NCBI RefSeq assembly: GCF_036588685.1
Contig: NW_026963297.1
Location: 2,728,001-2,792,000 of the forward strand
Reading direction: 5' to 3'
Length of the DNA stretch: 64,000 nt
DNA from: Mytilus trossulus
Lineage: Eukaryota
Of this stretch, positions 462 through 37,855 are shown one piece after another. The notes beneath the pieces were generated by a model. The model saw only the letters and a program-made list of their open reading frames with translations. It was not told where the DNA came from and did not search any database. Numbering within the stretch: position 1 is the first letter of the stretch; each line of letters opens with the position of its first letter. The position numbers and the translations under genes are program-made.

Positions 462-490
462 TAATTTATTTGAAAAGGTCTTCCCGAATT

Positions 491-3400: not shown

Positions 3401-6400
3401 CATGACTAAAAAAAGTGTGAGGTAAATGATATGTTTGTCTAGTATCTCAGATCCGTTAAATAACACGTAAAATAAATTAAAAAATCGTTACCCTATTCCT
3501 TTACCAAATACTCCTTGGAGAAGAAATACCATTTGAAACAAACAGAAAAGATAAAACTGTAGTGATCCCTAATATCCCAAAATGGCTTTCATAAAGGAGC
3601 AACCACCTGACTTAAAAAAGGGGGTTGAGTCAGATTTTTTGTTCGCGCAAACGTTTTTATTCAGTTTTTTCGATGCTAGCATTCAAATTTTATTTATTTT
3701 ACTATATTTAACACTATAATGTATAGGTGAAGCTCTGTATTCCAATTTTTTTTTATATCATCTGTTTGGCCGGGATATTTTCTTTTTTTATCAAACTGGG
3801 GATCAAAATATTTAGCAAGCCCCCCCCCCCCCTTCCCCTCTTTTTAAAGTCAACCGGTTGCTCCCAAACTGCAAGAAAAACTGTCCGAAAAATGTGCATT
3901 CGGTTCTACGTAATGAACATTTAAATGACACATAGTTTACAAGTGTGAACAATTCTTATGTACAGGTATCTAAACAAGGTGTATGGATGTGAACAAATGT
4001 AATGTGAAACCAGTGTGCATTACGGTAAACTAAATGTAAACATGTTTACTGTACATGGCTTTTGGTGTGAACACGGCCTTATAGAATTATCTCACATTTA
4101 GTTTTCTTTTTCTATTGCTTTCTGGCTTCAATTTTTATTGCAACCAATATCATCGTTTTTGACAACTTTTTTAATACATTATATTTAAATATCTAACACA
4201 TTAAGTGAAAAATGGCAATATTTTGGATTTTACAAAAACTTTGCATGCTAGAATATTGTATCTTAATGTTAGAAATAATGTTTATAAATAGAAAGAGTGA
4301 TGTGATTGCCAATGAGACAACTATCCACAATAGACCAAATGACACAGAAATTAAAATTTTGTGTTATTTAAAAAAAATACATTTTTAAGATAATTTTTTG
4401 TTATGCAAAACCCTTTTAGATTAAGAAATGGTATAAGTGACAATTATACCATTATTTGATGAATATCAAATGTCAAAGGAAGGCAATGTGAACAATTACT
4501 GTTTCCGTTACGGATTTCAACCATGAGCAAACACGTGACGCATAGTTAGCTATAAAAGGCCCCGGGGAGACAAAGAGAAACCCCTAGGCATGAGCATACT
4601 ACAACATTAAACCATGGTCAGTAACATTTAGAACAGGCAACCACCAACACTAACCACTGGATAGCAGTCGCCTGGTCGGAAATGCACATCTAGATAAAAA
4701 CACGTTAAAGAAGTCCTCTTTAAAAGATTACATACTTGCACCTGAATCGACTTGACGTACACAGAAATATTCGCCACTGGTCTTTACTCAAATAACGATT
4801 CACGCATAAATGCATGACTAAAAAAAGTGTGAGGTAAATGATATGTTTGTCTAGTATCTCAGATCCGTTAAATAACACGTAAAATAAATTAAAAAATCGT
4901 TACCCTATTCCTTTACCAAATACTCCTTGGAGAAGAAATACCATTTGAAACAAACAGAAAAGATAAAACTGTAGTGATCCCTAATATCCCAAAATGGCTT
5001 TCATAAAGGAGCAACCACCTGACTTAAAAAAGGGGGTTGAGTCAGATTTTTTGTTCGCGCAAACGTTTTTATTCAGTTTTTTCGATGCTAGCATTCAAAT
5101 TTTATTTATTTTACTATATTTAACACTATAATGTATAGGTGAAGCTCTGTATTCCAATTTTTTTTTATATCATCTGTTTGGCCGGGATATTTTCTTTTTT
5201 TATCAAACTGGGGATCAAAATATTTAGCAAGCCCCTCCCCCCCCCCTTTCCCCTCTTTTTAAAGTCAACCGGTTGCTCCCAAACTGCAAGAAAAACTGTC
5301 CGAAAAATTTGCATTCGGTTCTACGTAATGAACATTTAAATGACACATAGTTTGCAAGTGTGAACAATTCTTATGTACAGGTATCTAAACAAGGTGTATG
5401 GATGTGAACAAATGTAATGTGAAACCAGTGTGCATTACGGTAAACTAAATGTAAACATGTTTACTGTACATGGCTTTTGGTGTGAACACGGCCTTATAGA
5501 ATTATCTCACATTTAGTTTTCTTTTTCTATTGCTTTCTGGCTTCAATTTTTATTGCAACCAATATCATCGTTTTTGACAACTTTTTTAATACATTATATT
5601 TAAATATCTAACACATTAAGTGAAAAATGGCAATATTTTGGATTTTACAAAAACTTTGCATGCTAGAATATTGTATCTTAATGTTAGAAATAATGTTTAT
5701 AAATAGAAAGAGTGATGTGATTGCCAATGAGACAACTATCCACAATAGACCAAATGACACAGAAATTAAAATTTTGTGTTATTTAAAAAAAATACATTTT
5801 TAAGATAATTTTTTGTTATGCAAAACCCTTTTAGATTAAGAAATGGTATAAGTGACAATTATACCATTATTTGATGAATATCAAATGTCAAAGGAAGGCA
5901 ATGTGAACAATTACTGTTTCCGTTACGGATTTCAACCATGAGCAAACACGTGACGCATAGTTAGCTATAAAAGGCCCCGGGGAGACAAAGAGAAACCCCT
6001 AGGCATGAGCATACTACAACATTAAACCATGGTCAGTAACATTTAGAACAGGCAACCACCAACACTAACCACTGGATAGCAGTCGCCTGGTCGGAAATGC
6101 ACATCTAGATAAAAACACGTTAAAGAAGTCCTCTTTAAAAGATTACATACTTGCACCTGAATCGACTTGACGTACACAGAAATATTCGCCACTGGTCTTT
6201 ACTCAAATAACGATTCACGCATAAATGCATGACTAAAAAAAGTGTGAGGTAAATGATATGTTTGTCTAGTATCTCAGATCCGTTAAATAACACGTAAAAT
6301 AAATTAAAAAATCGTTACCCTATTCCTTTACCAAATACTCCTTAGAGAAGAAATACCATTTGAAACGAACAGAAAAGATAAAAATGTAGAGATCCCTAAT

Positions 6401-7008
6401 ATCTCAATCCTTTTTTCTCGGCTGTAAGAATGCTGTTGCATCTAACGTTTTCTAATGCGCTATCGAGACATCTCTAGTATATTCAAACTACTGCAAATTA
6501 TAAAAATGGCTTTCATGAAGTAGCAACCACTTAATTTAAAAAAAGGGGGAGGGTTATTATTTTTATCTGAGTCAGATTTTTTTTCGCGCGTACGTTTTTA
6601 TTCTTTTTTTTTCGATGCTGGTGATCAAATACTTTTTTTTTCAACATTTAACACTATAATGTATGGGGAAATTCTTGATTCAGAATATTTTTTTTTATCA
6701 TCTGTATGACCATTTTTTTTTTTTTTATCAAATTGGGGATCGGAATATTTCCATTCCCATCCCCCACCCCCTTTTGAAGTCAAATGGTTGTTACCTTACC
6801 ACTAGAAAAATTTTCCAAAAATTTTGAATTCAGTTCTACGTAATGAACATTTAAATGACATATAGTTTACAAGTGGAAACAAATCTGTACAGGTAGCTAA
6901 ACAAGGTGTATAGATGATAGCAAATGTAATGTGAAACCAGTGTACACTACACTAAACTAATTGTAAACATGTTTACTCTCCACGGCGTTTGGTGTGAACA
7001 CGGCCTCA
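491..7008. repeat. Tandem array of ~1.42-kb units (4 near-identical copies plus a diverged partial fifth)
   Basis: Anchor GACTTGACGTACACAGAAATATTCGCC recurs at 491, 1914, 3337, 4749 and 6164 (periods 1423, 1423, 1412, 1415; differences mostly in poly-C length). The unit is a mosaic of MITE and retroelement fragments. Confidence 0.95.
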
Positions 7009-14046: not shown

Positions 14047-14343
14047 TTGACAATGGTCCCGCTACTAAGAAAATCTCATATGGATTCAATGGAACTGTAC
14101 GCAATTGACATAATGTTTAACAACTAATTACTAGTAACATACTATAAGGATTTCGTACAGTAGCCCTTTTCACAAAAAATTTTAAGATAAATTTTACTCT
14201 TAAGAGTAATCTTAAGATTTTTAGGTTTTTCACAAAAAATCTTACGTAAATCTTAAGAGTAAAAATTATCGTAACTTTAAGAGTGCCATTACCCACTCTT
14301 AAGTATATATTTTAAACTTAAGAGAAATCTTAAGTTGATAAAA

Positions 14344-17300
14344 ATGGCTGCCTTATTTATTTTCGACATTGTAAACAGAAGAGCTTTGAGAAGGGATCGC
14401 GTTTTTCGTGACAGAACCGACGATCTTGATTTTCTTAATGATGACCAGCTAATAGCACGGTATCGTTTTCCCAGGCAGTCTATTTTAGACTTAACAGATA
14501 CACTCAGAGATGCCATTGAAAGACCTTCAAACAGATCAAAGGCAATCCCACCGCATATTCAAGTAAGTATAACACAACACAAATCACATTTTACTTCCGT
14601 CTTGAGAAGTTTGGTCACATTAAAATTTGGTATTAAGATCTATTTAAATAAGAACTATATTTTCGTGCGTATTTAATCAATGACGCATTACCATGATTAC
14701 CTCAGGGCACCAATTACCTCAGGGCACCGATTACCTCAGGGCATACAGCAGCGGACCTAACTGCCATCTGCTCTTGAAGTTGAATGTGCAAATTTGGTGC
14801 TTTCTATCACGTCCGCTATGAAGTGAATGATTGCAAATTATGTTACGCCAATCCCGAACAAGCAACAATACAAGCAAGACTCGATGTTGTACAGATTTTT
14901 TAGAACATTAAAGATCACTAAACTTTTCTTTCTAAAGTCGAAAATTTGTCAGAGTGGAGGCACGAATATACCGGACTGCACCGTACGATAACAATATCAT
15001 ATCAGTGTCAATACTACAACCCGGTCTTTGCTTTGCAACAAATAGACTTAAAATTCTACATCCAGCAGATCGATATATTGATGTCAACATTGAAAATTAA
15101 CACACATTTTCCGCACGTATTTTGTTGTATAAATGAAGAAATCTTCGAATGTAAACTCTGTTGACGCTTTAGCCTTTTGATAAAGAGTGCTTTCTTTCAC
15201 GTCCGCATTTCTATGAAGTATGGCATGCCAAGTTAACATTTAAAATAATGATTACTACAGATGGGAGACACACACAACAAAACAGTACATACTAACATAC
15301 ATTGTTATTTGTAGGACTTAAGAGAGACCACATGTTACATGGATATATTACACATTGATTTAATTTGGATATTTTTAATAAAGAGAGCATCATGTATACT
15401 GTCCTTAATATTTATATACAGATATATACATATTTAACAAATTGTGTTTAAACGGAAAACTGTTATAAAGATGAAACCTATCCAACACTTTAGTATATCT
15501 TGGGTATAAACATCAAATAAATATCTGATATTCACATAGGATATAATAACATACAAAATATTGTACGTATGGGGATTGCACAGATATTCCCGACACCTCA
15601 TAAGTCCGACACCCTACTGGTCCACCACCCCAATATTCCGACAAAGGTTGATAACTGCAATGATAGAAAATTACTTCATGAGGGTGTGGATGTAGGTTTA
15701 TAGAATAGAGAATAACGGAGGGGTATAAAGAATAAAGAAAAATGGACCTATAACAAGGAATAGAGAATAATGAGTTGGAAAAATATAACAATTAGAGAAT
15801 AATGGGCATAAGGTATAGAGAAAAGAGAAAATTGCAAATATTTAAAAGAAAATTAAATTAGATATGACTACTGAACTCCCAATTCCAGACACCAATTCGT
15901 AGAATACTTGTTGGCATGGTATTTGAACGTGTCAAAACAATTGATTTTTAATTTTCTTATAGAAAGTAGACATTAATTTCCGTATACAAGGGTCGTCCCA
16001 TGTCCGTGCTTAGAGCCTCAGAAAACTTGTCAAAAACAGGGTCAATCATCTTGATGACGAGTGAAAATCACAAAAATCGACAATATTAAAAAAACATGGA
16101 AAACCTGTATGACCCATTAACTATAGTAAATCTAGTAATATTGTTAGCGAAAATTTTACAGAGCCTCCACTGACTCAAGTCCCCCACCCCCCTCATAAAT
16201 ATTATTATAGAACGATATATATTTGCGAAAGCAAATTTACAGATCTAACAATGTTGGGTTGATGTTTAGACGAGTTGTATATATATATGTTGTGTGTGCT
16301 GTTTTTAGACCCTTCTACAACGAAATTTGTTTGACATGCACACGTATAAAAATTGCGGTTTTTATCCAACGCAGTAGGTTTGAACGTAGTTTTCAATTTA
16401 GACTCGTTTATATTTTTTGTTTGGGCATGTATCATATTTTCCCTCCGGTTTATATGATCCGTTCATCCTATATATTGACTCTTTAAATTCATGAGTTAAT
16501 CTAAAAATGAGGGTACTTTTTATATGGCCTTCCAAATACCGTTTCGATCCCTAACATCACTGAAGAAACATTTATTGTCGAAATCCGGATATGGTGTACT
16601 AAAGAAATATTGACACCGAATGTTTGTGGCACAACATCCTGTCCACAAGTTAACAATGTTTTTTTTTTTCTGTGACGTATTAAATTTATATTAAGATCCA
16701 TTTTGTTACATCTTGTGATCAATTTTATTTGGCAATCGCCAATGGCAGTCAGCAGGGTTAAAGAACATCAGTTGTTCGACCTGTTAGTCAAATGCGCTTT
16801 GTTTAAATATACTTTTTCACTCTTTTGGTCTTTTGGAAAATGTTGTTTGTGCTGTTTTTAGACCCTTCTACAACGAAATTTGTTTGACATGCACACGTAT
16901 AAAAATTGCGGTTTTTATCCAACGCAGTAGGTTTGAACGTAGTTTTCAATTTAGACTCGTATATATATATAATTTGTTTGACATGCACACGTATAAAAAC
17001 TGCGGTTTTTATCCAACGCAGTCATAGGTTTGAACGTAGTTTTCAATTTAGACTCGTATATATATATATATATATATATATAAACGAGTCTAAATTGAAA
17101 ACTACGTTCAAACCTATGACTGCGTTGGATAAAAACCGCAATTTTTATACGTGTGCATGTCAAACAAATTTCGTTGTAGAAGGGTCTAAAAACAGCACAA
17201 ACAACATTTTCCAAAAGACCAAAAGAGTGAAAAAGTATATTTAAACAAAACGCATTTGACTAACAGGTCGAACAACTGATGTTCTTGAACCCTGCTGACT

Positions 17301-20300
17301 GCCATTGGCGATTGCCAAATAAAATTGATCACAGGTTGTAACAAAATGGATCTTATTATAAATTTAATACGTCACAGAAAAAAAAATTGTTAACTTGTGG
17401 ACAGGATGTTGTGCCACAAACATTCGGTGTCAATATTTCTTTAGTACACCATATCCGGATTTCGACAATAAATGTCTCTTCAGTGATGTTAGGGATCGAA
17501 ACGGTATTTGGAAGGCCATATAAAAAGCACCCTCATTTTTAGAGAAAGTACCCTCATTTTTAGATTAACTCTTGAATTTTAAGAGTCAATATATAGGATG
17601 AACGGATCATATAAACCAGAGGGAAAATATGATACATGCCCAAACAAAAAATATAAACGAGTCTAAATTGAAAACTACGTTCAAACCTATGACTGCGTTG
17701 GATAAAAACCGCAATTTTTATACGTGTGCATGTCAAACAAATTTCGTTGTAGAAGGGTCTAAAAACAGCACAAACAACATTTTCCAAAAGACCAAAAGAG
17801 TGAAAAAGTATATTTAAACAAAACGCATTTGACTAACAGGTCGAACAACTGATGTTCTTGAACCCTGCTGACTGCCATTGGCGATTGCCAAATAAAATTG
17901 ATCACAGGTTGTAACAAAATGGATCTTATTATAAATTTAATACGTCACAGAAAAAAAAATTGTTAACTTGTGGACAGGATGTTGTGCCACAAACATTCGG
18001 TGTCAATATTTCTTTAGTACACCATATCCGGATTTCGACAATAAATGTCTCTTCAGTGATGTTAGGGATCGAAACGGTATTTGGAAGGCCATATAAAAAG
18101 CACCCTCATTTTTAGAGAAAGTACCCTCATTTTTAGATTAACTCTTGAATTTTAAGAGTCAATATATAGGATGAACGGATCATATAAACCAGAGGGAAAA
18201 TATGATACATGCCCAAACAAAAAATATAAACGAGTCTAAATTGAAAACTACGTTCAAACCTATGACTGCGTTGGATAAAAACCGCAATTTTTATACGTGT
18301 GCATGTCAAACAAATTTCGTTGTAGAAGGGTCTAAAAACAGCACAAACAACATTTTCCAAAAGACCAAAAGAGTGAAAAAGTATATTTAAACAAAACGCA
18401 TTTGACTAACAGGTCGAACAACTGATGTTCTTGAACCCTGCTGACTGCCATTGGCGATTGCCAAATAAAATTGATCACAGGTTGTAACAAAATGGATCTT
18501 ATTATAAATTTAATACGTCACAGAAAAAAAAAATTGTTAACTTGTGGACAGGATGTTGTGCCACAAACATTCGGTGTCAATATTTCTTTAGTACACCATA
18601 TCCGGATTTCGACAATAAATGTCTCTTCAGTGATGTTAGGGATCGAAACGGTATTTGGAAGGCCATATAAAAAGCACCCTCATTTTTAGAGAAAGTACCC
18701 TCATTTTTAGATTAACTCTTGAATTTTAAGAGTCAATATATAGGATGAACGGATCATATAAACCAGAGGGAAAATATGATACATGCCCAAACAAAAAATA
18801 TAAACGAGTCTAAATTGAAAACTACGTTCAAACCTATGACTGCGTTGGATAAAAACCGCAATTTTTATACGTGTGCATGTCAAACAAATTTCGTTGTAGA
18901 AGGGTCTAAAAACAGCACAAACAACATTTTCCAAAAGACCAAAAGAGTGAAAAAGTATATTTAAACAAAACGCATTTGACTAACAGGTCGAACAACTGAT
19001 GTTCTTGAACCCTGCTGACTGCCATTGGCGATTGCCAAATAAAATTGATCACAGGTTGTAACAAAATGGATCTTATTATAAATTTAATACGTCACAGAAA
19101 AAAAATTGTTAACTTGTGGACAGGATGTTGTGCCACAAACATTCGGTGTCAATATTTCTTTAGTACACCATATCCGGATTTCGACAATAAATGTCTCTTC
19201 AGTGATGTTAGGGATCGAAACGGTATTTGGAAGGCCATATAAAAAGCACCCTCATTTTTAGAGAAAGTACCCTCATTTTTAGATTAACTCTTGAATTTTA
19301 AGAGTCAATATATAGGATGAACGGATCATATAAACCAGAGGGAAAATATGATACATGCCCAAACAAAAAATATAAACGAGTCTAAATTGAAAACTACGTT
19401 CAAACCTATGACTGCGTTGGATAAAAACCGCAATTTTTATACGTGTGCATGTCAAACAAATTTCGTTGTAGAAGGGTCTAAAAACAGCACAAACAACATT
19501 TTCCAAAAGACCAAAAGAGTGAAAAAGTATATTTAAACAAAACGCATTTGACTAACAGGTCGAACAACTGATGTTCTTGAACCCTGCTGACTGCCATTGG
19601 CGATTGCCAAATAAAATTGATCACAGGTTGTAACAAAATGGATCTTATTATAAATTTAATACGTCACAGAAAAAAAAATTGTTAACTTGTGGACAGGATG
19701 TTGTGCCACAAACATTCGGTGTCAATATTTCTTTAGTACACCATATCCGGATTTCGACAATAAATGTCTCTTCAGTGATGTTAGGGATCGAAACGGTATT
19801 TGGAAGGCCATATAAAAAGCACCCTCATTTTTAGAGAAAGTACCCTCATTTTTAGATTAACTCTTGAATTTTAAGAGTCAATATATAGGATGAACGGATC
19901 ATATAAACCAGAGGGAAAATATGATACATGCCCAAACAAAAAATATAAACGAGTCTAAATTGAAAACTACGTTCAAACCTATGACTGCGTTGGATAAAAA
20001 CCGCAATTTTTATACGTGTGCATGTCAAACAAATTTCGTTGTAGAAGGGTCTAAAAACAGCACAAACAACATTTTCCAAAAGACCAAAAGAGTGAAAAAG
20101 TATATTTAAACAAAACGCATTTGACTAACAGGTCGAACAACTGATGTTCTTGAACCCTGCTGACTGCCATTGGCGATTGCCAAATAAAATTGATCACAGG
20201 TTGTAACAAAATGGATCTTATTATAAATTTAATACGTCACAGAAAAAAAAATTGTTAACTTGTGGACAGGATGTTGTGCCACAAACATTCGGTGTCAATA

Positions 20301-23300
20301 TTTCTTTAGTACACCATATCCGGATTTCGACAATAAATGTCTCTTCAGTGATGTTAGGGATCGAAACGGTATTTGGAAGGCCATATAAAAAGCACCCTCA
20401 TTTTTAGAGAAAGTACCCTCATTTTTAGATTAACTCTTGAATTTTAAGAGTCAATATATAGGATGAACGGATCATATAAACCAGAGGGAAAATATGATAC
20501 ATGCCCAAACAAAAAATATAAACGAGTCTAAATTGAAAACTACGTTCAAACCTATGACTGCGTTGGATAAAAACCGCAATTTTTATACGTGTGCATGTCA
20601 AACAAATTTCGTTGTAGAAGGGTCTAAAAACAGCACAAACAACATTTTCCAAAAGACCAAAAGAGTGAAAAAGTATATTTAAACAAAACGCATTTGACTA
20701 ACAGGTCGAACAACTGATGTTCTTGAACCCTGCTGACTGCCATTGGCGATTGCCAAATAAAATTGATCACAGGTTGTAACAAAATGGATCTTATTATAAA
20801 TTTAATACGTCACAGAAAAAAAAATTGTTAACTTGTGGACAGGATGTTGTGCCACAAACATTCGGTGTCAATATTTCTTTAGTACACCATATCCGGATTT
20901 CGACAATAAATGTCTCTTCAGTGATGTTAGGGATCGAAACGGTATTTGGAAGGCCATACAAAAAGCACCCTCATTTTTAGAGAAAGTACCCTCATTTTTA
21001 GATTAACTCTTGAATTTTAAGAGTCAATATATAGGATGAACGGATCATATAAACCAGAGGGAAAATATGATACATGCCCAAACAAAAAATATAAACGAGT
21101 CTAAATTGAAAACTACGTTCAAACCTATGACTGCGTTGGATAAAAACCGCAATTTTTATACGTGTGCATGTCAAACAAATTTCGTTGTAGAAGGGTCTAA
21201 AAACAGCACAAACAACATTTTCCAAAAGACCAAAAGAGTGAAAAAGTATATTTAAACAAAACGCATTTGACTAACAGGTCGAACAACTGATGTTCTTGAA
21301 CCCTGCTGACTGCCATTGGCGATTGCCAAATAAAATTGATCACAGGTTGTAACAAAATGGATCTTATTATAAATTTAATACGTCACAGAAAAAAAAATTG
21401 TTAACTTGTGGACAGGATGTTGTGCCACAAACATTCGGTGTCAATATTTCTTTAGTACACCATATCCGGATTTCGACAATAAATGTCTCTTCAGTGATGT
21501 TAGGGATCGAAACGGTATTTGGAAGGCCATATAAAAAGCACCCTAATTTTTAGAGAAAGTACCCTCATTTTTAGATTAACTCTTGAATTTTAAGAGTCAA
21601 TATATAGGATGAACGGATCATATAAACCAGAGGGAAAATATGATACATGCCCAAACAAAAAATATAAACGAGTCTAAATTGAAAACTACGTTCAAACCTA
21701 TGACTGCGTTGGATAAAAACCGCAATTTTTATACGTGTGCATGTCAAACAAATTTCGTTGTAGAAGGGTCTAAAAACAGCACAAACAACATTTTCCAAAA
21801 GACCAAAAGAGTGAAAAAGTATATTTAAACAAAACGCATTTGACTAACAGGTCGAACAACTGATGTTCTTGAACCCTGCTGACTGCCATTGGCGATTGCC
21901 AAATAAAATTGATCACAGGTTGTAACAAAATGGATCTTATTATAAATTTAATACGTCACAGAAAAAAAAATTGTTAACTTGTGGACAGGATGTTGTGCCA
22001 CAAACATTCGGTGTCAATATTTCTTTAGTACACCATATCCGGATTTCGACAATAAATGTCTCTTCAGTGATGTTAGGGATCGAAACGGTATTTGGAAGGC
22101 CATATAAAAAGCACCCTCATTTTTAGAGAAAGTACCCTCATTTTTAGATTAACTCTTGAATTTTAAGAGTCAATATATAGGATGAACGGATCATATAAAC
22201 CAGAGGGAAAATATGATACATGCCCAAACAAAAAATATAAACGAGTCTAAATTGAAAACTACGTTCAAACCTATGACTGCGTTGGATAAAAACCGCAATT
22301 TTTATACGTGTGCATGTCAAACAAATTTCGTTGTAGAAGGGTCTAAAAACAGCACAAACAACATTTTCCAAAAGACCAAAAGAGTGAAAAAGTATATTTA
22401 AACAAAACGCATTTGACTAACAGGTCGAACAACTGATGTTCTTGAACCCTGCTGACTGCCATTGGCGATTGCCAAATAAAATTGATCACAGGTTGTAACA
22501 AAATGGATCTTATTATAAATTTAATACGTCACAGAAAAAAAAATTGTTAACTTGTGGACAGGATGTTGTGCCACAAACATTCGGTGTCAATATTTCTTTA
22601 GTACACCATATCCGGATTTCGACAATAAATGTCTCTTCAGTGATGTTAGGGATCGAAACGGTATTTGGAAGGCCATATAAAAAGCACCCTCATTTTTAGA
22701 GAAAGTACCCTCATTTTTAGATTAACTCTTGAATTTTAAGAGTCAATATATAGGATGAACGGATCATATAAACCAGAGGGAAAATATGATACATGCCCAA
22801 ACAAAAAATATAAACGAGTCTAAATTGAAAACTACGTTCAAACCTATGACTGCGTTGGATAAAAACCGCAATTTTTATACGTGTGCATGTCAAACAAATT
22901 TCGTTGTAGAAGGGTCTAAAAACAGCACAAACAACATTTTCCAAAAGACCAAAAGAGTGAAAAAGTATATTTAAACAAAACGCATTTGACTAACAGGTCG
23001 AACAACTGATGTTCTTGAACCCTGCTGACTGCCATTGGCGATTGCCAAATAAAATTGATCACAGGTTGTAACAAAATGGATCTTATTATAAATTTAATAC
23101 GTCACAGAAAAAAAAATTGTTAACTTGTGGACAGGATGTTGTGCCACAAACATTCGGTGTCAATATTTCTTTAGTACACCATATCCGGATTTCGACAATA
23201 AATGTCTCTTCAGTGATGTTAGGGATCGAAACGGTATTTGGAAGGCCATATAAAAAGCACCCTCATTTTTAGAGAAAGTACCCTCATTTTTAGATTAACT

Positions 23301-26300
23301 CTTGAATTGAATATATATATATATGAACTGTTTCGTTATAGGGACTGATTAAAAGAAAGACGAAAGAAATTAAATAGTCAATTAAGCTCAGAGGTCAAAA
23401 ACAAAACAATAATACCGTGTGACGTTTATAAAAAGAAACCCAAGACGCACAGCACTCCACTTACCACAACGCAGAAAACAAGCAAAACAGGGTGTTCTCG
23501 TGTTGTTGTTTTAAGCAATAACGGCTTTCATTATACAGAATTCATTTATTTCTCTTGTCATGAGATTGTAATGTCGTAGTTCTATTGGGTAGTTTTCTTT
23601 CATTTAAATTATTGTTTACATACATGTATATGAGACCGTTTTGTAAAGCCATGATCTTTTAAGCTTAACATACGATATATTGAATTTTGAGAGGCAAATG
23701 GTGACCTAGCAGTAGCTGCTTAAATCTTAATTAACCCATTTGGTGTGTATAGTTGCTCAAGCATCCACATCATTTTGGCCAAAAAAAATAAATAGCAGCA
23801 GTTCAACTCGAAAGTAAGGGTGAGGATATGAGGATAATATTCAGTCGTTTTCGGAGCAGTATGGTCTTTCATTTATGATAATTTAGTTTATGGTAAACAA
23901 GATAGTTCAATCGCATAATTGTATTTCAATAACTTTTGTTCGCAGAAATAAATCTACATCATCGGCTAAGGCAAGCGGGGAGGATGATGATACGCAGACC
24001 CGTGGACGTGTTTCATCTGAAATTAAACCTAGTAGATTGATGGCTTCTCATCTGACTTTAGCAACTAACAACTAAAACACCATATCCTAATATCGTTTCT
24101 TGTGACATGGTAAACGACGTGATAAAAAAATTCAATCTGTAATAGATCGTGATAATTCCTAGTCTAATGAATTCCCGTTTCTATCTAGGTTCAAATACTA
24201 ATTTTATTTTTAATTACAGAATAAACTAAGTTTCAATGTTCCCCGCCATGCACATTACATGTCATATTTTATCTATCAAAGGGTAAGGAACAAGGGAATA
24301 ACTAAAAAAGCACTTTTATATTTTTTATTCTCAATATCTTAAGAAAAATAAAAGCTTCACAGCAAATGAAAAGGGATTTCCATTACAATTAATATATTTC
24401 AAAAGGTCATAACTGGTTAAAAATATTTGATAACGACTTATTTTCGAAAGTATCAAAGACATTGCAGATAATATACGTTTCACTAAATCTGGCAAGAATT
24501 GTACACATGAGAGTGCTAACAAGACCGGACGATCAGACTTCTGGTATTTTTATCTCTCCTGCAACGCGCTTAGATAGGTAATAAAAAAATCAAAAACCTA
24601 AACTATAAGTTGAAACTGAGACTACTATAACACATGTTATAGTAGTCTCAGGTTGAAAGGGCAGTCACTTCAGTTCCTATATTCCGAAGTTCCCCAATTA
24701 TACAGAAGTGCCGCTGTAATGGGGTCCGCTTTTGATATGTCAAATATAAGATTGGGTGGGAAACTTTTACATCAAATATTTTTGAATTGAATGATGCATG
24801 TGATGGTAGTTACGAGGAAACAATAAAAGTCGGTTGAAAATATCAATATATGAATTGGTGTGTATTTTGAATTTAAACAAAAATCTAATTAGTGTCGGAT
24901 TCTGGGGGAGTACATGTGCTTTAAATAAAAAATATTTTTCTGCATAAAAAGGTCCCAAAAAAATTTCGACTCGCTCCGCTCGGCGAAACATCCACATCAT
25001 TCCAACCCTGGCTACGCCACTGGGTTACCTATATAAGCAATTATTTACCCGCAAAAAGGTGAATTATTCACACTTTATATATATATCACATTCATCCGTT
25101 TAAAATCAGTTTCTGATCACTTTAGCTTTCGCAATTTCCAGTATTGAGTACACTATTTTCAATATCCAGTGTACAAATTGTTTTATATTGAGTCACAATG
25201 TTCAATATGTCCAAGCAAATCAGTATATCTATCCTCAGTTGACAAAACCTTTGAAAAATCAGAGACATATGACATATATACACATATATGTCTCTGGAAA
25301 AATGTAACAAGTTGCAGGGCTTAATTTCTGCGAGTAATTTTCTGAATAACACATTTATATTGTTTTCCTATTTACCCACTCATTGTATATCCTCGTACAC
25401 CGGGAATTGCCGGTTGTGTACTACATATTGATTTAGGTGTAATATATATATAATATACTTTTTTTCTTTTTCGTAGGTCATGACAACATTGAGAATATTA
25501 GCAAAGGGCGACTATTTGTCCGAAGTTGCCGATTTGCATGGTATCTCCATTGCCTCTGCATCAAGAATAGTCCATTCTGTTTGCAATGCTATGTGTGATA
25601 GAATCCAGAACATCCAGTTCCCAAGAATGGAAGAAGAACAGAGGAAGATAAAACAGAGATTCTTTGAAATAAGCAGTTTCCCAAATGTGTTGGGTGCCAT
25701 TGATGGAACGCTTATTCCTATCCAAGGGATGTCAGGAGATGATGAGCCAAATTATGTTTGCAGGAAACAATACCACGCCATAAATGTACAGGCCATCTGT
25801 GATGCAGATTTGAAGTAAGTTATTTTTATAAGTTCATTATTCAGTAATTAAACAAAATAACAACAACATTGATATTAGAAATTTTAAAGCTAAATAAAAT
25901 TCGTGAATTTTCGAAAATAAGAGCGTGTACTTATTTACATGTACATTGAATTTCTTTGACATATTCTCCTTTTCCACTGATTCTTATTCAAAATAAAAAA
26001 GAAGATATGGTGTGATTACCAATGAGACAACTCTTTACAAGAGACCAATGACACAGAAATTAACAACTATACCTCACCTTCAACATTGATCAAAGCCCAA
26101 ATAACTATGTCTAAAAACTTTAAAAATGCTCCTTTTTTGCCTTATTCCTAAAAAAGGTGGGTTTTTTTTGTTGTTTTTTAATATAGATTAGACCTTGGAT
26201 TTTCCCGTTTGAATGGTTTTACACTAGTAATTTTGGGGCCCTTTATAGCTTGTTGTTCGGTGTGAGCCACGGTTCTGTGTTGAAGGCCGTACTTTGACCT

Positions 26301-27386
26301 ATAATGGTTTACTTTTTAAAAAAATTGTAATTTGGATGGAGAGTTGTCTCTTTGGCACTTACACCGCATCTTCCTATATCTATGAGGAAATGACCCCCCA
26401 AAATAAGCTCAACCTTCTATTTGTGGTATTGGAAGCTTTTAAAAAACGGGTGGGACCATCAAACCAAAAAAAAACAAGGTTTCTGCTAGCATAGATATTT
26501 GAAAATAAATAGCCAATTAACATAACCTGAACAGGAACCAATGAAAATGTTCAAGTTGCATTTATATAAGTATCTATGATCATGATTTTTTTTAGTAATA
26601 AAGTGTTTCTTCTATATTTTATTTAAAAGGTTTACAAACATAGTTGTTAAGTGGCCTGGAGCCACCCATGATGCCTTCATTCTGGCCAATTCCAATATTC
26701 CTACAATAATGGAGGGTCAGAATGGATGGCTTCTTGGGGATTCAGGATATGGATTAAAGAAATGGCTAATGACACCCTTATTAAATCCAAATTCACAGAA
26801 AGAAATAGCCTACAACAAATCTCATTGCAAGACCAGGAATACGGTAGAGAGGGCATTTGGTGTTCTTAAAGCTCGCTTCAGGTAATCTTTAATACTTGAT
26901 AAAAGCTGTTTTGCTTTTATCTTACTTTCTGTATCAAAAATGACTTATTAAATTGTCAGAATTTCATTATTAATAAATGGGTGTGTAATAACAGAATCAA
27001 ATTGGTAATTGGCAAATTGACTATTCCTTACAACACCAGGAGATGGAATAATTATTGAAAAAGAAACTTTTAATAGTAGTAGTGGAATATTAATTCAGAA
27101 TATAAACATTTCCATTCTCAATTTTAGTATCCAATTTAAACATATTAAACCTTTTTTTATTTACAGATGTCTACATAAAACCGGTGGGTCACTCCAATTC
27201 AACCCTCCTAAGTGTTGTAAGTTGATTGGGGCTTGTTTTAGACTACACAACAAGGCATGTAGTGATGGTCTGCCAGTGCCTGAGGATGAGGATATCCAAG
27301 AGTTAGGACATCATAACATTATAAATGATGACCAACCAAATAATGAGGCAAATGCTATAAGGAGAAGATTAATACAGAGATTTTGA
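14344..27386 (+). CDS. Harbinger (HARBI1-like, DDE_Tnp_4) transposase, 4 exons, ~342 aa
   Basis: Exons 14344-14562, 25477-25814, 26630-26881, 27167-27386, all GT-AG and phase-consistent (1029 nt). Motifs RVFRDR..RYRF, GAIDGT, KQYHAINVQ, WPGATHDA, LLGDSGY, VERAFGVLKARFR, LHN. Confidence 0.9.
16287..17056 (+). repeat. Inverted arm of the 573-bp ribozyme repeat (~1.2 units plus a short partial copy)
   Basis: Reverse complement of the array unit. Copies end at ...TTAGACTCGT followed by (TA)n near 16960 and 17057; (TA)n also precedes the arm at ~16277-16288. Confidence 0.9.
16554..16597 (+). ncRNA. Type I hammerhead ribozyme, variant with stem II mismatch
   Basis: ACATCA-CTGAAGA-AACATTTATTGTC-GAAA-TCCGGA-TA-TGGTGT. 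Same as the array copies except the first base of stem II is A instead of G. Confidence 0.7.
17083..23308 (-). repeat. Tandem array of ~10.9 near-identical 573-bp units, each with a hammerhead ribozyme (non-LTR retrozyme or PLE pseudo-LTR array)
   Basis: Period 572-574 bp, visible in the repeated ORF track and anchors. Bounded by (TA)n at 17057-17082 and ~23312-23323. Confidence 0.92.
17446..17489 (-). ncRNA. Minimal type I hammerhead ribozyme (first of 11 copies)
   Basis: Minus strand reads ACAUCA CUGAAGA GACA-UUUAU-UGUC GAAA UCCGGA UA UGGUGU: conserved core CUGANGA/GAAA, 4-bp stem II, short stem III with palindromic CCGG loop, AUA cleavage triplet, 6-bp stem I. Other copies have their lower coordinate at 18019, 18593, 19165, 19738, 20311, 20884, 21457, 22030, 22603 and 23176. 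Confidence 0.88.
26195..26383 (+). mobile_element. Short 3'-end fragment of the Naiad-like retroelement family
   Basis: Near-identical (reverse complement) to 33069-33255, the 3' terminus of the RT element, ending ...CATCTTCCTATATCTAT. Confidence 0.75.
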
Positions 27387-27432: not shown

Positions 27433-30400
27433 TCAAAATACCAAAAAAAAATCAAAATAACTTTCAGAAAATTTAATGACTGGAGACAAACACTGCAGAT
27501 CTATCCCGTACTGCTGTTCTCTGTGCTGTGACGCTCTAATGGCTTCCAGGGCCACAGTAGACCTTCTCTGCATTTCCAGCATCTGCTCCATAATCTTAAG
27601 TTTTTGGGCTCTATACTCCTCTACTTTTTGGAGTTTACTTGCTTTAAGTATGAAATACCTCTCAGAGGAAGCATTTTCATTACTGATGGCAGCTATAAAA
27701 TATATAAATATATAGTTAAAACATTTATAGTGAAAAGAAAAATACTTTAAGTTTAAACATTTGTGTTACATTTTATAAATTTTTTGTTTTGTAAACGACA
27801 AACTTTCATTTCTGCCAACAAAGTTGTATTGATTAACACTAAAATTTTACAGATTTTTAAATGCTTTATTCAAAGTTTTGTTTTGGGTGCCATGTATGTT
27901 ATATAATTATCGGGCAACAGATCAAATTTGAGTTGCATGTTGATAAAGTTAAATTTGTGATATTAATGGCTCTTAATATATTAAGATTGCAAAACATGTT
28001 TATTTTTGACAGCCAATAGGGGATACTGTATTGCACAAGAAATACTCTCAGAATTATTGATGATTTTATCTATTTTTATGGCAAAAGCACAATATGATTA
28101 CCTCTTTTCTTCCCATTTGATGCAAAAGATGAATTAGCACTACTGCTACTGGTTTGTGCCTGTGAACCAACATCTGTTAATATAAAAAATTAAGACAAAA
28201 TTAACCATCATATAAGAATAAGTATTGAATTATTATTTTAAAATATGAAGCAGTTTGCTGATTTCCCTCCTTTTTTGGTGGAATTCTTTTGCATTTATTT
28301 TATAAATTAAATTAACTATTTTTTTATAACATGGTTCTGGTAGTTGTTGTCTCTTAAATACATATATCAAATTTGATAAGTGAGCAACTAAAAATATTCA
28401 ATGATTGCATCTTCATTTGTGACTCACTTACATAATATATAACTAGAGGCTCTAAAGAGCCTGTGTCGCTCACCTTGGTCTATGTGAATATTAAACAAAG
28501 GAAGCAGATGGATTCATGACAAAATTGTGTTTTGGTGATGGTGATGTGTTTGTAAATCTTACTTTACTAAACAGTCTTGCTGCTTACAATTATTTCTATC
28601 TATAATGAACTTGGCCCAGTAGTTTCAGTGGAAAATGTTAATAAAAATTTACAAATTTTATGAAAATTGTTAAAAATTGACTATAAAGGACAATTACTCC
28701 TTAGTGGGTCAATTGACCATTTTCAGATTTGCTCTAATTGCTTTGTTTTTTGAGTTATAAGCCAAAGACTGCATTTTACCCACATATTCTAATTTTAGAC
28801 GTGGCGGCCATCTTGGTTGGTTGACCGGGTCACGCCATACATTTTTTAAACTAGATAACCAAAAGATGATTGTGGCCAAGTTTGGATTTATTTGGCCAAG
28901 TAGTTTCAGGGGAGAAGATTTTTGTAAAAGATAACTAAGATTTACGAAAAATGGTTAAAAATTGACTATAAAGGGCAATAACTCCTAAAGGGGTCAACTG
29001 ACCATTTCGGTCATGTTGACTTATTTGTAAATCTTACTTTGCTGAACATAATTGCTGTTTACAGTTTATCTCTATCTATAATAATATTCAAGATAATAAC
29101 CAAAAACAGCAAAATTTCCTCAAAATTACTAATTCAGGGGCAGCAACCCAACAACGGGTTGTCCGATTCGTCTGAAAATTTCAGGGCAGATAGATCTTGA
29201 CCTGATAAACATTTTTACCTCATGTCAGATTTCCACTTAATGCTTTGGTTTTTGAGTTATAAGCCAAAAATTGCATTTTACCCCTATGTTCTATTTTTAG
29301 CCGTGGCGGCCATCTTGGTTGGTTGACCGGGTCATGCCACACATTTTTTAAACTAGATACCACAAAGATGATTGTGGCCAAGATTGGATTAATTTGGCCA
29401 AGTAGTTTCAGAGGAGAAGATTTTTGTAAAAGATAACTAAGATTTACGAAAAATGGTTAAAAATTGACTTTAAAGGGCAATAACTCCTAAAGGGGTCAAC
29501 TGACCATTTCGGTCATGTTGACTTATTTGTAAATCTTACTTTGCTGAACATAATTGCTGTTTACAGTTTATCTCTATCTATAATAATATTCAAGATAATA
29601 ACCAAAAAACAGCAAAATTTCCTCAAAATTACAAATTCAGGGGCAGCAACCCAACAACGGATTGTCTGATTCATCTGAAAATTTCAGGGCAGATAGATCT
29701 TGACCTGATAAACATTTTTACCCCATGTCAGATTTCCTCTAAATGCTTTGGTTTTTGAGTTATAAGCCAAAAACTGCATTTTACCCCTATGTTCTATTTT
29801 TAGCCGTGGCGGCCATCTTGGTTGGTTGACCGGGTCACGCCACACATTTTTTAAACTAGATACCCCAATGATGATTGTGGCCAAGTTTGGTTCAATTTGG
29901 CCCAGTAGTTTCAGAGGAGAAGATTTTTGTAAAAGTTAACGACGACGGACGACGGACGACGGACGACGACGGACGCCGGACGCAAAGTGATGGGAAAAGC
30001 TCACTTGGCCCTTCGGGCCAGGTGAGCTAAAAAAGAAGATGTGGTATGATTGCCAATGAGACAACTTTCCACAAAAGACCAAAATGACACAAACATTAAC
30101 AACTATAGGTCACCTTACAGCCTTCAACAATGAGCAAAGCCCATACCGCATAGTAAGCTTTAAAAAGCTCTGATAAGACAATGTAAAACTATTCAAACGA
30201 GAAAACTAACTGCCTTATTTATGTAAAAAAATGAATGAAAAACAAATATGTAACACATGAACAAACGACAACCACTGAATTACAGGCTCCTGACTTGGGA
30301 CAGGCTCATACATAAATTATGTGGCGGGGTTAAAGTTATTGGAAAACTGGTCATTATCATGATATATGGACTGCCCACAGGACAGTCATATAGACTAAGA

Positions 30401-33400: not shown

Positions 33401-36400
33401 CCCTTTTTCTGAAACAATAGCATAACATCACAACATATAAAAACATACGATAAAATATCAATTAGCAGACTTAACTCAATCAAAAAACGTATGATTACAC
33501 AAAGAACGAATAAATTTGATCTGCGATATCTGAATACAAATGCACAGTTAATTAAATATTAGAGACAAACAGTCATGACCAAAAGGCTATCAAATAAATT
33601 CAAACACACTGAGAAATATTTAACCAATCAATGTTCACTTTAGAAAAAAAACGTTTTTTTATAATCTTGAAGTTTATACAAATGTTGTAAGAATAAGTGA
33701 AAAATTGAAGATATTACAAATAATCAAAGCTGGTATACAGCCAAGATCCATATAAATAAAAAATGACAAAAAAGCATTATAAACAGTATCAACAGGTCGA
33801 ATTAACAAGAAAATACGATTTGAGAGTACTCGCAGTTACTGACAGCTAGTTAAAAGCCAAAACCAATTAATAGTAAAAAATCATGCATCAGAGACTAAAA
33901 TCGACTAAAACACATCACAGGGATTTAGTATTTTAACGTCATTAATAGTCAAAGAAGACATGACTTGTGCAATGCCAAAAATAAATGTATCGACAGGTAG
34001 TAGTATAGTGAAGAGCGACTTCTATAGAAATAAAAGTTAACGTGGCTGTGTCCCCTATACATCTCGCCTCAAAAGATAATGAAATTTAGTTATGTTTTAA
34101 TTTGCTAATGACAAAATCAATATTAGTGCCAATGTGAACTATATTCAGAGATCTAATTACAATATTGGTACGATAACCCTTACTTATAAGTTTGTTCAAA
34201 GGTTCGATGAGTTTACAAGGATCACATAGTGATTTCCTCGCTTTAAGTACAATATTACCATAAAATTTAGGATGAGAAATACCATTTTTAATAAGCTTTC
34301 TACAGGTATAGCCAAATTTACTAATCAAATCTTTGTATCTATGAAAGAATTTAGTAAAAGTTTTAAGTAATTTATGGTATCGAAATCCCTGACACAACAA
34401 TTTACCAGTGATGCATTGATTACGTTCGTTAAAATCTATGACATCAGAACACACACGGGCAAACCGAACGAGTTGCGATATATAAACACCGTATGATGGA
34501 GCCAAAGGCACATCGCCGTCTAAAAAAGGAAAATTAACAATAGGAAATGAAAAATCGTCTCTTTTGTCGTAAATTTTAGTGTGAAGTTTCCCGTTTGAAA
34601 TTGAAATGTCTAAATCTAGAAAAGGACAACTGCTGCTGTTTATGTTAGATTTAGTTAAAGTAAGTTCGTTTGGGTAAATTTCTGAAGTATATTTAGAGAA
34701 CTCTGGATTATTCAACGAAAAAATATCATCCAGATAACGGTAGGTATTTTTGAATGTATCAACCAAATGTAACAATGATGGGTCTTTACTGAGTTTGGTC
34801 ATAAACTGAGATTCATAGCAATATAGAAATAAATCTGCTATTAAAGGGGCACAGTTGGTGCCCATAGGAATACCTACTACCTGACGATACACTTTATCGC
34901 CGAAACGTACATAAATGTTATCAAGCAGAAAGTTTAAAGCTTCAATCATATCCTCACATTTCCAGTAAGTGTATCTAGCATACTTTCCTTTTTCGTTACA
35001 GAAAAAGGCCTTAAACGAGTTGCAGCAAATAAAATTACAATGAGATTTTTCGAAAGACCATTTTATCAAATACAAAAACTTTTTCTTTATAAGATTGTGT
35101 GGAAGTGTAGTGTACAGAGTAGAAAAATCATAACTGTCAACAGAATTGTAAGGACCATTGAAAGCATGTATTTTATCTAAAACCTCTAAAGAATTTTTAA
35201 CACTCCAAAAATAATTAATACCATTATTTTCATAAGCTTTATTACAAAAGCTAATAACCAGTTCTTTGATAGTAGTAAGGGAGGTGGTTAGAAGCACTGA
35301 TAGATTAGTAGTAGAACACTTACTCGAAGCGGAGATGAAACGGAATTTAAATGGTTTTTTATTGTTTATCAGTGTTTTCCCATTGATGACTTTCACCTAT
35401 CACACATTAACTTACATATGTATTAATGATTGTTGTTCTTGAGTTAATCCCCTTGGTTTACATGTCAATAACCTCTAAAATGTGTTTAAATTCTATATTA
35501 ATTACAAACCATTTGATTTTGGTTGTCCTCCAACTGCACCACTACCACAACTTATGTCAACAGAAGTGTCTGATGTGTCTGAGGTGTCAAAACCACCCTC
35601 AATTCCTTCAACCATGGTTTTTGTGAAGGTTCCTATAATCTAATTCAATAATTAAATTTTAAAAAGTTATAGTTAGATGATTCTTATACAATTTGCTTAC
35701 ATGTATTTATTAGGAAGTAAGCTCATATGAATTATGATTGGTCAATAAGGTACAAAAGTCACTGTCATGTAACATTCATCATCAAAACATACTTGCACTG
35801 ATACACAAGTATTGGACAATCATCATGATCATATGCATGATAAAGAAATTATTTCTCATAAGTAAAATTTGCAAAAGAAAGCATAAAATATTGCCTTCAA
35901 TTTGAATTGTTAAATTCCTATAACTGTGAAACAACAAATAAATCAAAAGTGAGCTTCTTACATCATACCCACAATAATGTAAAGTTTCAAGGAAATAAAT
36001 TTAGGCATAATATAAGTAACTTGCAAATTGTGAAAGTGTTTTGAGGTATTGTCCGAAAAAATTGATGACGGACTGACAGAAAGACAATGGTAAACCATAA
36101 TTAGATTAGTCTCATGGGCAATCATACCTAATCTTCTTATATATGTGTGTACTCACATTTTTTTCCCATGATTTCAACGTATCATCTGGTGGTGGTCCTC
36201 CTCCTGTTTTTTTTACTACCTGGAGTCTAGCAGACTCCTTCTTCTTTGCCAGGCTTTGTATGTCCTGCCATTTTTTTTTTATGTCAGCCACATCTCGTTT
36301 TATGGCCGAAGGGTTTACAGAGTTAACACTGGAAATCAATTCAAGATGTTGTTTAAAAATGAAGAAAAAGCATGTTTTGTGTACTATCTAATATTTTTAA

Positions 36401-36998: not shown

Positions 36999-37855
36999 TT
37001 TGGAAAGTGTAAACAGCAGACGACATCCTGGCAGTTCTCTTTGTAAAACATGTCTAATAATTTGATCTAACCTTATATATCAAATGGTACCCATAAGTTA
37101 ATGTTCACAAAGGTACACAAACGATATAAAAAGCCAATCTATAAAAATCTCGAGCAGACGCTGTCAGTGCAGTTTCACATTCATTCATAAATTTCTGTGA
37201 ATGGAGCTCGGGAGTTGCAACTGGAAGATGAATATAAAAACAGGGAGAGTCATGCAAGTATCACGATATCGACGTACATAAATCAGAATAAAGTATATAT
37301 TTATGGTTGTTTGTTGAATCCAAGCAGCATTATACTTACTTTAAACAGTAGTCAGTACCTAGCACCTTGTCCGTGTGCTGCCATTTTGGATTGAAGTGAT
37401 AATCGGAAGTCGTCATTGCGCATGTGAAACGAAAGTGAAACAAGGTTGCTATGCAATTGTTTATCTTACGAGTAGTCGTAAGTTTTTACTTAAGATAAAA
37501 ACTTAAGAATACTCTTAAGATAAAAAATAATCTTACGACAGCCTTTGTGAAAATGACTTAAGATTTCACTTACGATACTCGTAAGATTAAATCTTAAGAT
37601 TTATCTTAAGATTTTTTGTGAAAAGGGCTGATTTTTAATAGAAAGCATACCTCTTAAACTTAAATACACATCTTTTTCTTATTGCAATAATTTATAACAA
37701 GAGCATAAATTTTAATGTGATGAAGCCTGCTAAGGTCGCATTTCACAACTATCAATCAACTAGATATGATGTAGCATTAGCACTGTTTTAATTAGATGAT
37801 ATCATATACTATTAGAACTCAGCTGCTAAGAATCATTTATGAATCAATAACTATG

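What the first reader, a model, noticed from the sequence alone, without database searches (positions are those of the whole stretch)
17083..23308. 6.2-kb array of 573-bp units, each with a self-cleaving hammerhead ribozyme, hidden in a transposase intron
Seen: every unit contains on the minus strand a complete minimal type I hammerhead (CUGAAGA, stem II GACA/UGUC, GAAA, palindromic CCGG stem III loop, AUA site, stem I ACAUCA/UGGUGU). There are 11 copies, essentially identical, with no credible coding capacity. Known: tandem minimal hammerheads that cleave as dimers typify metazoan non-LTR retrozymes (circRNA-producing) and PLE pseudo-LTRs. Inference: transcription would release 573-nt monomers that can circularise, and the array could come from rolling reverse transcription of such a circle. 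The monomer seems longer than the metazoan retrozymes I recall, so it may be a new family.
Basis: partly seen in the sequence, partly recalled or inferred. Interest (0 to 1): 0.75.

Follow-up and report, generated by a model that had tools for sequence, protein, structure and literature searches.

The report
Ribozyme repeat array in mussel microsatellite
A mussel genome holds eleven near-identical 573-base non-coding repeats, each with a hammerhead ribozyme motif, inserted in a TA microsatellite; they are likely a new member of the known 'retrozyme' mobile RNAs, likely copied in by a Penelope-like retrotransposon's enzyme.

Summary
In detail: 10 full 573-bp units plus 495 bp (17083-23308), 99.8-100% identical, with 11 type I hammerheads on the minus strand. 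The array lies in intron 1 of an intact Harbinger transposase gene of a Mytilus-type genome. Two corrections: the ribozyme has the ordinary invertebrate retrozyme architecture (helices of 6, 4 and 2 bp), not the PLE 'minimal' one; and 573 bp lies within the 51-972 bp range of a 2026 preprint.

New here: two more copies of the family lie beside the array. All three end at the same 3' point, 368 nt downstream of the cleavage site. All are truncated at different 5' points, and all abut (TA)n. Public reads show the same fixed end in TA family-wide, and abundant strand-biased RNA across the unit-to-unit joint (313:1). No read ends pile up at the cleavage site.

Best reading: a non-autonomous Penelope-like retrozyme, inserted by target-primed reverse transcription that starts internally on a circular or multimeric RNA. 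Cleavage, circularity, the helper element and rolling versus local expansion are untested. It is a new member of a known kind.

The parts
17083..23308 (-). Tandem array of 10 full 573-bp units plus 495 bp. 3' end at 17083, with ATATA at 17078-17082 shared with the TA tract; 5'-truncated at unit position 79
17446..17489 (-). Type I hammerhead of the 3'-most unit; predicted cleavage between 17452 and 17451. The other ten lie at 18019-18062, 18593-18636, 19165-19208, 19738-19781, 20311-20354, 20884-20927, 21457-21500, 22030-22073, 22603-22646 and 23176-23219
   Evidence: 11 hits; 0 in 20 shuffles
16287..16960 (+). Second family variant, 1.2 units of a 553-bp period, 93.6% identical to the array unit, same 3' end, 5'-truncated. 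Its hammerhead (16554-16597) has G10.1 changed to A, breaking the first pair of stem II; it is sense to the transposase
16971..17057 (+). 87-bp 3'-terminal fragment of the family, same 3' end, tail-to-tail with the array across the TA tract
16278..16287 (.). (TA)n tract at the 5' junction of the variant copy
16960..16971 (.). (TA)n tract between the variant copy and the 87-bp fragment
17057..17082 (.). (TA)13 tract between the fragment and the array's 3' end; likely the primer for the array
23311..23324 (.). (TA)7 tract at the array's 5' junction
14344..27386 (+). Host gene: Harbinger/HARBI1-type transposase, exons 14344-14562, 25477-25814, 26630-26881 and 27167-27386, 342 aa open; intron 1 (14563-25476) holds the inserts
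   Evidence: exon 2 is 94% identical to a Mytilus edulis 'putative nuclease HARBI1'
14162..14192 (+). Left inverted-repeat end of the Harbinger-like element (31 bp, 97% to 37629-37599); no clean target duplication seen
37599..37629 (-). Right inverted-repeat end of the Harbinger-like element; a Myb/SANT-like partner gene runs on the minus strand between about 37000 and 27433
34086..35396 (-). 5'-truncated Naiad-type PLE reverse transcriptase within the Myb-like gene. It shows that PLE machinery exists in this genome but shares no match above 14 nt with the unit

Best explanation
The array is eleven near-identical copies of a non-coding, hammerhead-bearing 573-bp mussel repeat that is likely a non-autonomous Penelope-like retroelement (a non-LTR retrozyme), likely inserted by target-primed reverse transcription into a (TA)n tract. 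Steps. (1) Shown for the family: tandem copies are transcribed mostly from one strand, read as the ribozyme strand if the library is of the usual stranded type. (2) Predicted: each hammerhead cuts after AUA (or AUC), as a monomer or through the 8-nt palindrome AUCCGGAU as a dimer, and a host ligase would close the 573-nt monomer. (3) Inferred: a TA-targeting PLE protein (Neptune, Hydra or Naiad type; not identified) nicks (TA)n and starts cDNA at a fixed internal point 368 nt past the cleavage site, where the RNA reads UUUAUAU and could pair with the TA primer. (4) Inferred: the enzyme runs on through the cleavage site and unit joint and falls off at random, after 87 nt, 1.2 units and about 10.9 units here. 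For the array the template is most likely a circle copied round and round. (5) Each insertion leaves TA on both sides, so the site is reused. The host transposase would be spared, because the intact ribozymes face the other strand.
For: Same 3' end (within 5 nt) in 3 of 3 insertions, three different 5' ends, and (TA)n at 4 of 4 junctions; only 5 other TA runs of 10 bp or more lie in the remaining 57 kb. Family-wide, loose ends at that 3' point read as TA-rich sequence in 47 and 43 RNA reads (X22, X24) and 54 contigs of X1. Summed contig depth steps up 2.3-2.4-fold at that point in both DNA runs (depth is no copy number). Copies do not end at the cleavage site: none of the 24 loose ends shown, of 1093, marks it. 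Two of three copies exceed one unit, so a cut linear monomer (368 nt from start point to 5' end) cannot be the template without jumping. The tandem form occurs independently: L008 holds 2.1 units at 99.4%, and the two halves of the 553-bp variant share their own 3-nt deletion. RNA: X22 depth is 270-400 over the unit (higher where a second family overlaps the ribozyme) against 0-2 in the flank; unit-to-unit joint 313 reads (63 starts) versus 1 on the other strand; X24 12 versus 0. That is about 140 ppm of bases in X22. The fold is conserved: a second expressed family matches only the 42-nt ribozyme, with stem I A-U changed to G-C, loop III CCGG changed to the also palindromic GCGC, and A17 changed to C (tables 3 and 7; duplex energies). 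All array units share two alleles that L008 lacks and X22 RNA almost lacks (family allele in 262 of 264 and 346 of 357 reads), so the array has one founder. Literature: PLE 5' truncation, tandems and (TA)n targets (PMC8557442); internal RT start in a PLE (PMC11167929); retrozymes as non-autonomous PLEs.
Against: No read ends pile up at the cleavage site in either RNA run, and about 316 same-family reads cross it in X22. This fits circles, but equally no cleavage at all. In the one PLE tested in vitro, unprocessed RNA was the main substrate and the RT start was not homologous to the target (PMC11167929). The monomer is not more self-paired than shuffles: z -1.5 linear and -1.1 circular, unlike the 'highly self-paired' circles of PMC7229834. 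The monomer helix III is predicted to be destabilising (-2.1 versus -5.1 kcal/mol without it). No autonomous partner was found: there is no match to the in-window Naiad, and three short exact unit strings (11-13 nt) were absent from the Naiad/Chlamys/Hydra consensus supplement (a weak test). The PLE 30-40-bp tail and the 5'-adjacent inverted copy were not seen. RNA strand rests on an unrecorded library type, and the RNA comes from other individuals and loci, not this array. One founder is also what local unequal crossover gives.
Confidence: 0.62

Rival explanations
1. Same non-autonomous PLE-type element, but the template was a long uncleaved multimeric transcript of a donor array; the ribozyme is slow or protein-gated and circles play no part in insertion.
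For: No end pile-up at the cleavage site and flat depth across it. In Anolis Poseidon, hammerhead mutants insert normally, cleavage needs the protein, and RNA-seq shows no ends at the site (PMC11167929). Only 1 of 9 Xenopus retrozyme dimers cleaved in vitro. Helix III is weak.
Against: The characterised Mytilus retrozyme cleaves at about 0.1 per min and accumulates mostly as circles (PMC7229834). Its ribozyme may be the close relative seen, but that identity is untested. An 11-mer RNA must escape 10 ribozymes.
Confidence: 0.17
2. A short insertion of about two units was later expanded in place by unequal crossover or slippage into a satellite-like array.
For: All units share two founder alleles. 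This route is proposed for retrozyme arrays in bioRxiv 10.64898/2026.07.22.740005. Neighbouring insertions are only 0.15 and 1.2 units long.
Against: The 4 variants are singletons and none is shared by neighbours. Near-zero divergence leaves little time for about nine expansion steps. Flank contigs of two other individuals start at the TA tract with 8 unlike letters and show no link to the unit (records 8 and 15; weak, since contigs break at TA and the flank may come from another Harbinger copy).
Confidence: 0.13
3. The unit is simply the pseudo-LTR of an autonomous PLE that was amplified without its ORF at this one site.
For: Type I hammerheads and (TA)n targets are features of Hydra and Neptune PLEs. 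24 of 57 Xenopus retrozyme families match known elements, 21 of these 22 being PLEs.
Against: The same unit joint recurs in a 6%-diverged variant, in L008 and in 313 RNA reads. No ORF-like loose end appears among the 24 shown. The ribozyme lacks the PLE min-HHR traits.
Confidence: 0.05
4. The copy number is an assembly artefact (over-expanded repeat).
For: Units are almost identical; 2 of the 4 differences are homopolymer indels; no long reads were seen.
Against: Tandem units are real elsewhere (L008; RNA and DNA joints). Two units carry private substitutions and both ends have distinct TA junctions.
Confidence: 0.03

Closest known systems
Metazoan non-LTR retrozymes, including the Mytilus galloprovincialis 350-390-bp family (Cervera and de la Pena 2020, PMC7229834)
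   Same: Tandem non-coding low-GC units (34%), one canonical-architecture type I hammerhead per unit, same host genus, abundant RNA. That paper reports two similar Mytilus ribozyme families, and two are seen.
   Different: Unit is 573/553 bp; the predicted fold is no more stable than shuffles; the fixed internal 3' end and (TA)n target are not described in the sections read. Its supplement (Figs S4, S5) could not be read, so this ribozyme may already be counted there.
Non-LTR retrozymes as non-autonomous PLE derivatives (Li, Clavereau, Pollet 2026, bioRxiv 10.64898/2026.07.22.740005)
   Same: Meets their working definition (2 or more consecutive units with a complete type I hammerhead, MFE below -5 kcal/mol; here -8.1). 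Length lies within their 51-972 bp and copy number within their range.
   Different: They sampled no mollusc and linked families to PLEs by pLTR homology; here the link rests on insertion anatomy and no parent pLTR was found.
EN+ Penelope-like elements that target (TA)n: Hydra, Neptune, Naiad (Craig et al. 2021, PMC8557442); non-autonomous Chlamys such as MRC1
   Same: 5' truncation, fixed 3' end, head-to-tail tandems, microsatellite target; a type I hammerhead in Hydra; multicopy head-to-tail non-autonomous copies in Chlamys.
   Different: No ORF; no 30-40-bp tail seen; the inverted copies lie tail-to-tail at the 3' side, not at the 5' side. Naiads lack canonical hammerheads, and the Mytilus Naiads are listed without TA preference.
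Poseidon of Anolis carolinensis, in vitro (Frangieh et al. 2024, PMC11167929)
   Same: RT starts inside the RNA rather than at its end; AT-rich target; no RNA-seq ends at the hammerhead site.
   Different: There the start site has no homology to the target; here it abuts UUUAUAU, which could pair with (TA)n. That element is autonomous.

Membership tests
Non-LTR retrozyme | Head-to-tail units, 2 or more consecutive with a complete type I hammerhead (Li 2026 definition; MFE below -5 kcal/mol) | tested here: met
   11 of 11 units; MFE of the 44-mer -8.1 kcal/mol, though in a fold without helix III
Non-LTR retrozyme | No protein coding; low GC | tested here: met
   Longest ATG ORF 39 aa sense and 62 aa antisense; GC 34%
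Non-LTR retrozyme | No LTR, primer-binding site or polypurine tract | not tested
   No LTR-internal-LTR layout; PBS and PPT were not searched
Non-LTR retrozyme | Abundant RNA on the ribozyme strand | tested here: met
   joint reads 313:1 (X22) and 12:0 (X24); strand call assumes the usual stranded library
Non-LTR retrozyme | Self-cleavage | not testable with these tools
   Needs in vitro transcription; no end pile-up in RNA reads
Non-LTR retrozyme | Accumulates as circular monomer | tested here: inconclusive
   Flat depth across the cleavage site and the joint fits a circle or an uncleaved multimer
Non-LTR retrozyme | [quoted passage not shown] | tested here: not met
   573 nt; z -1.5 and -1.1; the 2026 range of 51-972 bp covers the length
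Non-autonomous Penelope-like element (works like) | Fixed 3' end with variable 5' truncation and tandem copies | tested here: met
   3 of 3 window insertions; loose ends at 22808 in reads and contigs
Non-autonomous Penelope-like element (works like) | Microsatellite (TA)n target | tested here: met
   4 of 4 junctions; TA-rich loose ends
Non-autonomous Penelope-like element (works like) | Sequence shared with the pLTR or 3' end of an autonomous RT-EN element | tested here: inconclusive
   None with the window's Naiad or by exact strings in the Craig 2021 supplement; no whole genome held
Non-autonomous Penelope-like element (works like) | Optional 30-40-bp tail, or inverted truncated copy at the 5' end | tested here: not met
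   3' ends vary by 0-5 nt only; the inverted copies face tail-to-tail. Both traits are optional in PMC8557442
PLE minimal hammerhead (min-HHR, Cervera 2014) | No or vestigial helix III, long helix II (7-8 bp in the type example), short helix I, extra base between positions 9 and 10.1 | tested here: not met
   Helices 6/4/2 bp, no extra base; not filed here
Rfam hammerhead families | Score at gathering threshold | tested here: not met
   0 hits; the motif call rests on the structural scan and the covarying sister motif

The most novel reading that the evidence does not exclude
The array is the frozen product of one target-primed reverse transcription that rolled about 11 times round a 573-nt ribozyme-made circle. 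It was primed by pairing of a nicked (TA)n strand to an internal UUUAUAU. This would show how an animal retrozyme circle is primed and point to TA-targeting PLE proteins as the helper, which PMC7761336 lists as not deducible from the repeats.
Probability: 0.35. Interest if true: 0.62.

Novelty: new member of a known kind. Interest (0 to 1): 0.36.

Why it matters
How animal retrozyme RNAs get back into genomes, and by which enzyme, is open. PMC7761336 says the repeats show no motif that names the helper; PMC7229834 and the 2026 preprint propose PLEs. This family gives a concrete, testable signature: a fixed internal start 368 nt from the cleavage site, (TA)n targets, and insert lengths from 87 nt to about 11 units at one site. 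It appears young and highly expressed, so it is a practical substrate for circle-versus-multimer and priming tests. The class itself, its presence in mussels and its size range are known, so surprise is modest.

Tried and rejected
Rfam gave no hammerhead hit. No whole genome is held, so there was no genome-wide count or partner search. The ribozyme pattern in metagenome contigs gave 20 loci: 1 (L008) is the family, and the other 19 have no blastn match to the unit and were dropped as chance. There were 0 matches in viral contigs and prokaryote genomes. Earlier-findings look-ups were empty.

The in-window Naiad was rejected as the sequence parent. Twin priming was rejected for the 87-bp inverted fragment: twin priming joins 5' ends, whereas these face tail-to-tail. 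Pol III B box and poly(A) signal are absent from the sense unit, and one A-box-like match was taken as chance. One unit each of the tandem arrays at 483-6407 and 28723-29940 has no CUGANGA.

The supplement of PMC7229834 could not be read. The supplements of the mussel pan-genome paper PMC7653742 had 0 hits for hammerhead, retrozyme, Penelope or HHR. One search fetched an unrelated paper through a wrong id. No description of this 573-bp family turned up in literature searches; Repbase, Dfam and GenBank MN642551-76 were not searchable.
Full report
Observation. The array is real as described. One unit matches 10 full copies and one 495-bp copy between 17084 and 23308 at 99.8-100%. The 11 copies differ at 4 places, each in a single unit. 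A scan that demands the core and three helices finds 11 type I hammerheads in the 64 kb, all on the minus strand, one per unit, and none in 20 shuffles of the rest of the window. Rfam does not detect them. The unit is 34% GC and has no ATG ORF above 62 codons. It lies in the 10.9-kb first intron of an open 342-codon Harbinger-type transposase, on the opposite strand. The host is a mussel: exon 2 is 94% identical to a Mytilus edulis HARBI1-like protein. A nearby RT is 99% identical to the representative of a cluster that holds M. edulis and M. californianus entries.

Left of the array lie two more copies on the plus strand. One is a 674-bp copy of a 553-bp variant (16287-16960, 93.6%); the other is an 87-bp fragment (16971-17057). 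All three insertions stop at the same point of the unit, within 5 nt, and begin at three different points. All four junctions are (TA)n tracts; the other 57 kb hold five such tracts of 10 bp or more. The common 3' end is 368 nt downstream of the predicted cleavage site, not at it. In the tandem RNA that point lies in the stretch UUUAUAU. The array's end shares ATATA with the tract; the other two copies stop a few bases earlier.

The family beyond this window. A metagenome contig (L008) holds 2.1 tandem units at 99.4%; it is 1 of 20 pattern hits, the other 19 unrelated. Of 24 runs listed, 20 hold the unit, 14 of them with 0.88 or more of its words, under four coded organism labels and marine or mollusc metagenome labels. 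I laid 4 of the 24 on the last unit plus flank. In both DNA runs the summed contig depth over the unit is about four orders above most of the flank (no copy number), and it steps up 2.3-2.4-fold at the common 3' end. Loose ends there read as TA-rich sequence in 54 contigs of X1 and in 47 and 43 RNA reads; only 24 of 1093 loose ends are shown. In RNA run X22 depth is 270-400 over most of the unit on one strand against 0-2 in the flank. The unit-to-unit joint is read 313 times (63 starts) on that strand and once on the other; X24 gives 12 and 0. With the usual stranded library this is the ribozyme strand, but the library type is not recorded. No ends pile up at the cleavage site and about 316 same-family reads cross it. 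These RNAs carry the family alleles, not the two alleles private to this array, so they come from other loci and animals.

The ribozyme. Its helices (6, 4 and 2 bp, with a palindromic tetraloop) are the canonical metazoan type I layout of PMC4209133, not its PLE minimal motif. A second expressed family matches only these 42 nt (361-382 reads at each side). It differs in ways that keep the fold: the outer pair of stem I is G-C for A-U, loop III is GCGC for CCGG (both make 8-nt palindromes, -10.5 and -10.9 kcal/mol), and the base at the cut is C for A. PMC7229834 reports two similar ribozyme families in M. galloprovincialis, usually in 350-390-bp repeats. The second family may be that one, and this one may already be counted there; the supplement could not be read. 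The plus-strand variant copy, the only ribozyme facing the same way as the transposase, has lost the conserved G10.1-C11.1 pair. That is one case and may be simple decay.

Mechanism. Shown: anatomy, shared 3' end, TA targets, tandem form elsewhere and strand-biased RNA across joints. Inferred: target-primed reverse transcription by a PLE protein. 5' truncation, tandems and (TA)n targets are PLE traits (PMC8557442), and a PLE RT starts inside its RNA (PMC11167929). Two of three copies exceed one unit and run through the cleavage site, so the template was a circle or an uncut multimer, not a cut monomer, barring template jumps. I favour the circle for the array. The characterised mussel retrozyme cleaves and is mostly circular, and all 11 units descend from one founder with only singleton changes. 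Against this: the monomer folds no better than shuffles; Anolis Poseidon inserts from unprocessed RNA; 8 of 9 Xenopus dimers did not cleave; and local crossover also gives one founder. No helper was identified. The window's own 5'-truncated Naiad-type RT (longer relatives carry the DKA motif; a motif shared with Naiads) has no match above 14 nt to the unit.

Comparison and novelty. The array meets the working definition of a non-LTR retrozyme and lies within the 51-972-bp range of bioRxiv 10.64898/2026.07.22.740005, which also argues for PLE origin. It departs from the 2020 description in size and self-pairing. It works like a non-autonomous PLE, but membership by sequence is unproven. I found no account of this family or of (TA)n targeting by retrozymes in searches; that covers only the open library, and repeat databases were not searchable. 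Verdict: new member of a known kind, interest 0.36, with a useful handle on priming.

What I saw of each paper. PMC7229834: parts 1-4 of 6 of the text, supplement not readable. bioRxiv 10.64898/2026.07.22.740005: parts 1-3 of 5, supplements not seen. PMC8557442: abstract, passages, sections 6 and 11, supplement parts 1-2 of 59 and two searches in it. PMC4209133: abstract, Results, Discussion. PMC11167929: parts 1-2 of 4. PMC7761336, 10.1101/721605, PMC10886601 and PMC10294476: passages. PMC7653742: a supplement search only. Hammerhead position numbers (G10.1, C11.1, 17), the twin-priming geometry and the BEL/Pao label are from recall, apart from the G10.1-C11.1 remark.

Noticed in passing
window 14162-37629: A 23.5-kb Harbinger-like element with 31-bp inverted ends, an open transposase and a convergent Myb/SANT-like gene carries two kinds of retroelement insert in its introns; if still mobile it would move the array as cargo. 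No clean target duplication.
   Followed up: partly
window 34086-35396 (-): 5'-truncated Naiad-type RT, frame open, 99% identical to a public cluster of 42 members; different from the listed Naiad_Mgal by exact-string search.
   Followed up: partly
window 23177-23218, reads: A second expressed mussel hammerhead family shares only the ribozyme (loop GCGC, AUC site, G-C for A-U in stem I); possibly the published 350-390-nt retrozyme.
   Followed up: partly
window 16554-16597 (+): The only ribozyme copy sense to the host transposase has a broken first pair of stem II.
   Followed up: partly
window 23182: Most genomic depth carries C at the cut site (AUC), whereas the array and the main RNA form in X22 carry A (AUA).
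   Followed up: no
window 483-6407: About 4.2 tandem copies of a 1.4-kb unit at about 98% identity; no CUGANGA in the unit checked.
   Followed up: partly
window 28530-29940: Tandem units of about 500 bp at about 95%; no CUGANGA in the unit checked.
   Followed up: partly
window 46057-46830: Compound minisatellite with 78-, 104-, 182- and 286-bp periods just upstream of the long ORF.
   Followed up: no
window 47014-52434 (+): 1806-codon open frame that looks like a BEL/Pao-type LTR retrotransposon polyprotein (label from recall, not searched).
   Followed up: no
window 38525-43760 and 54838-61090: Transposon-like gene clusters: THAP, DDE_Tnp_4 and YqaJ domains; DUF6589 and a RecQ-like helicase.
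   Followed up: no
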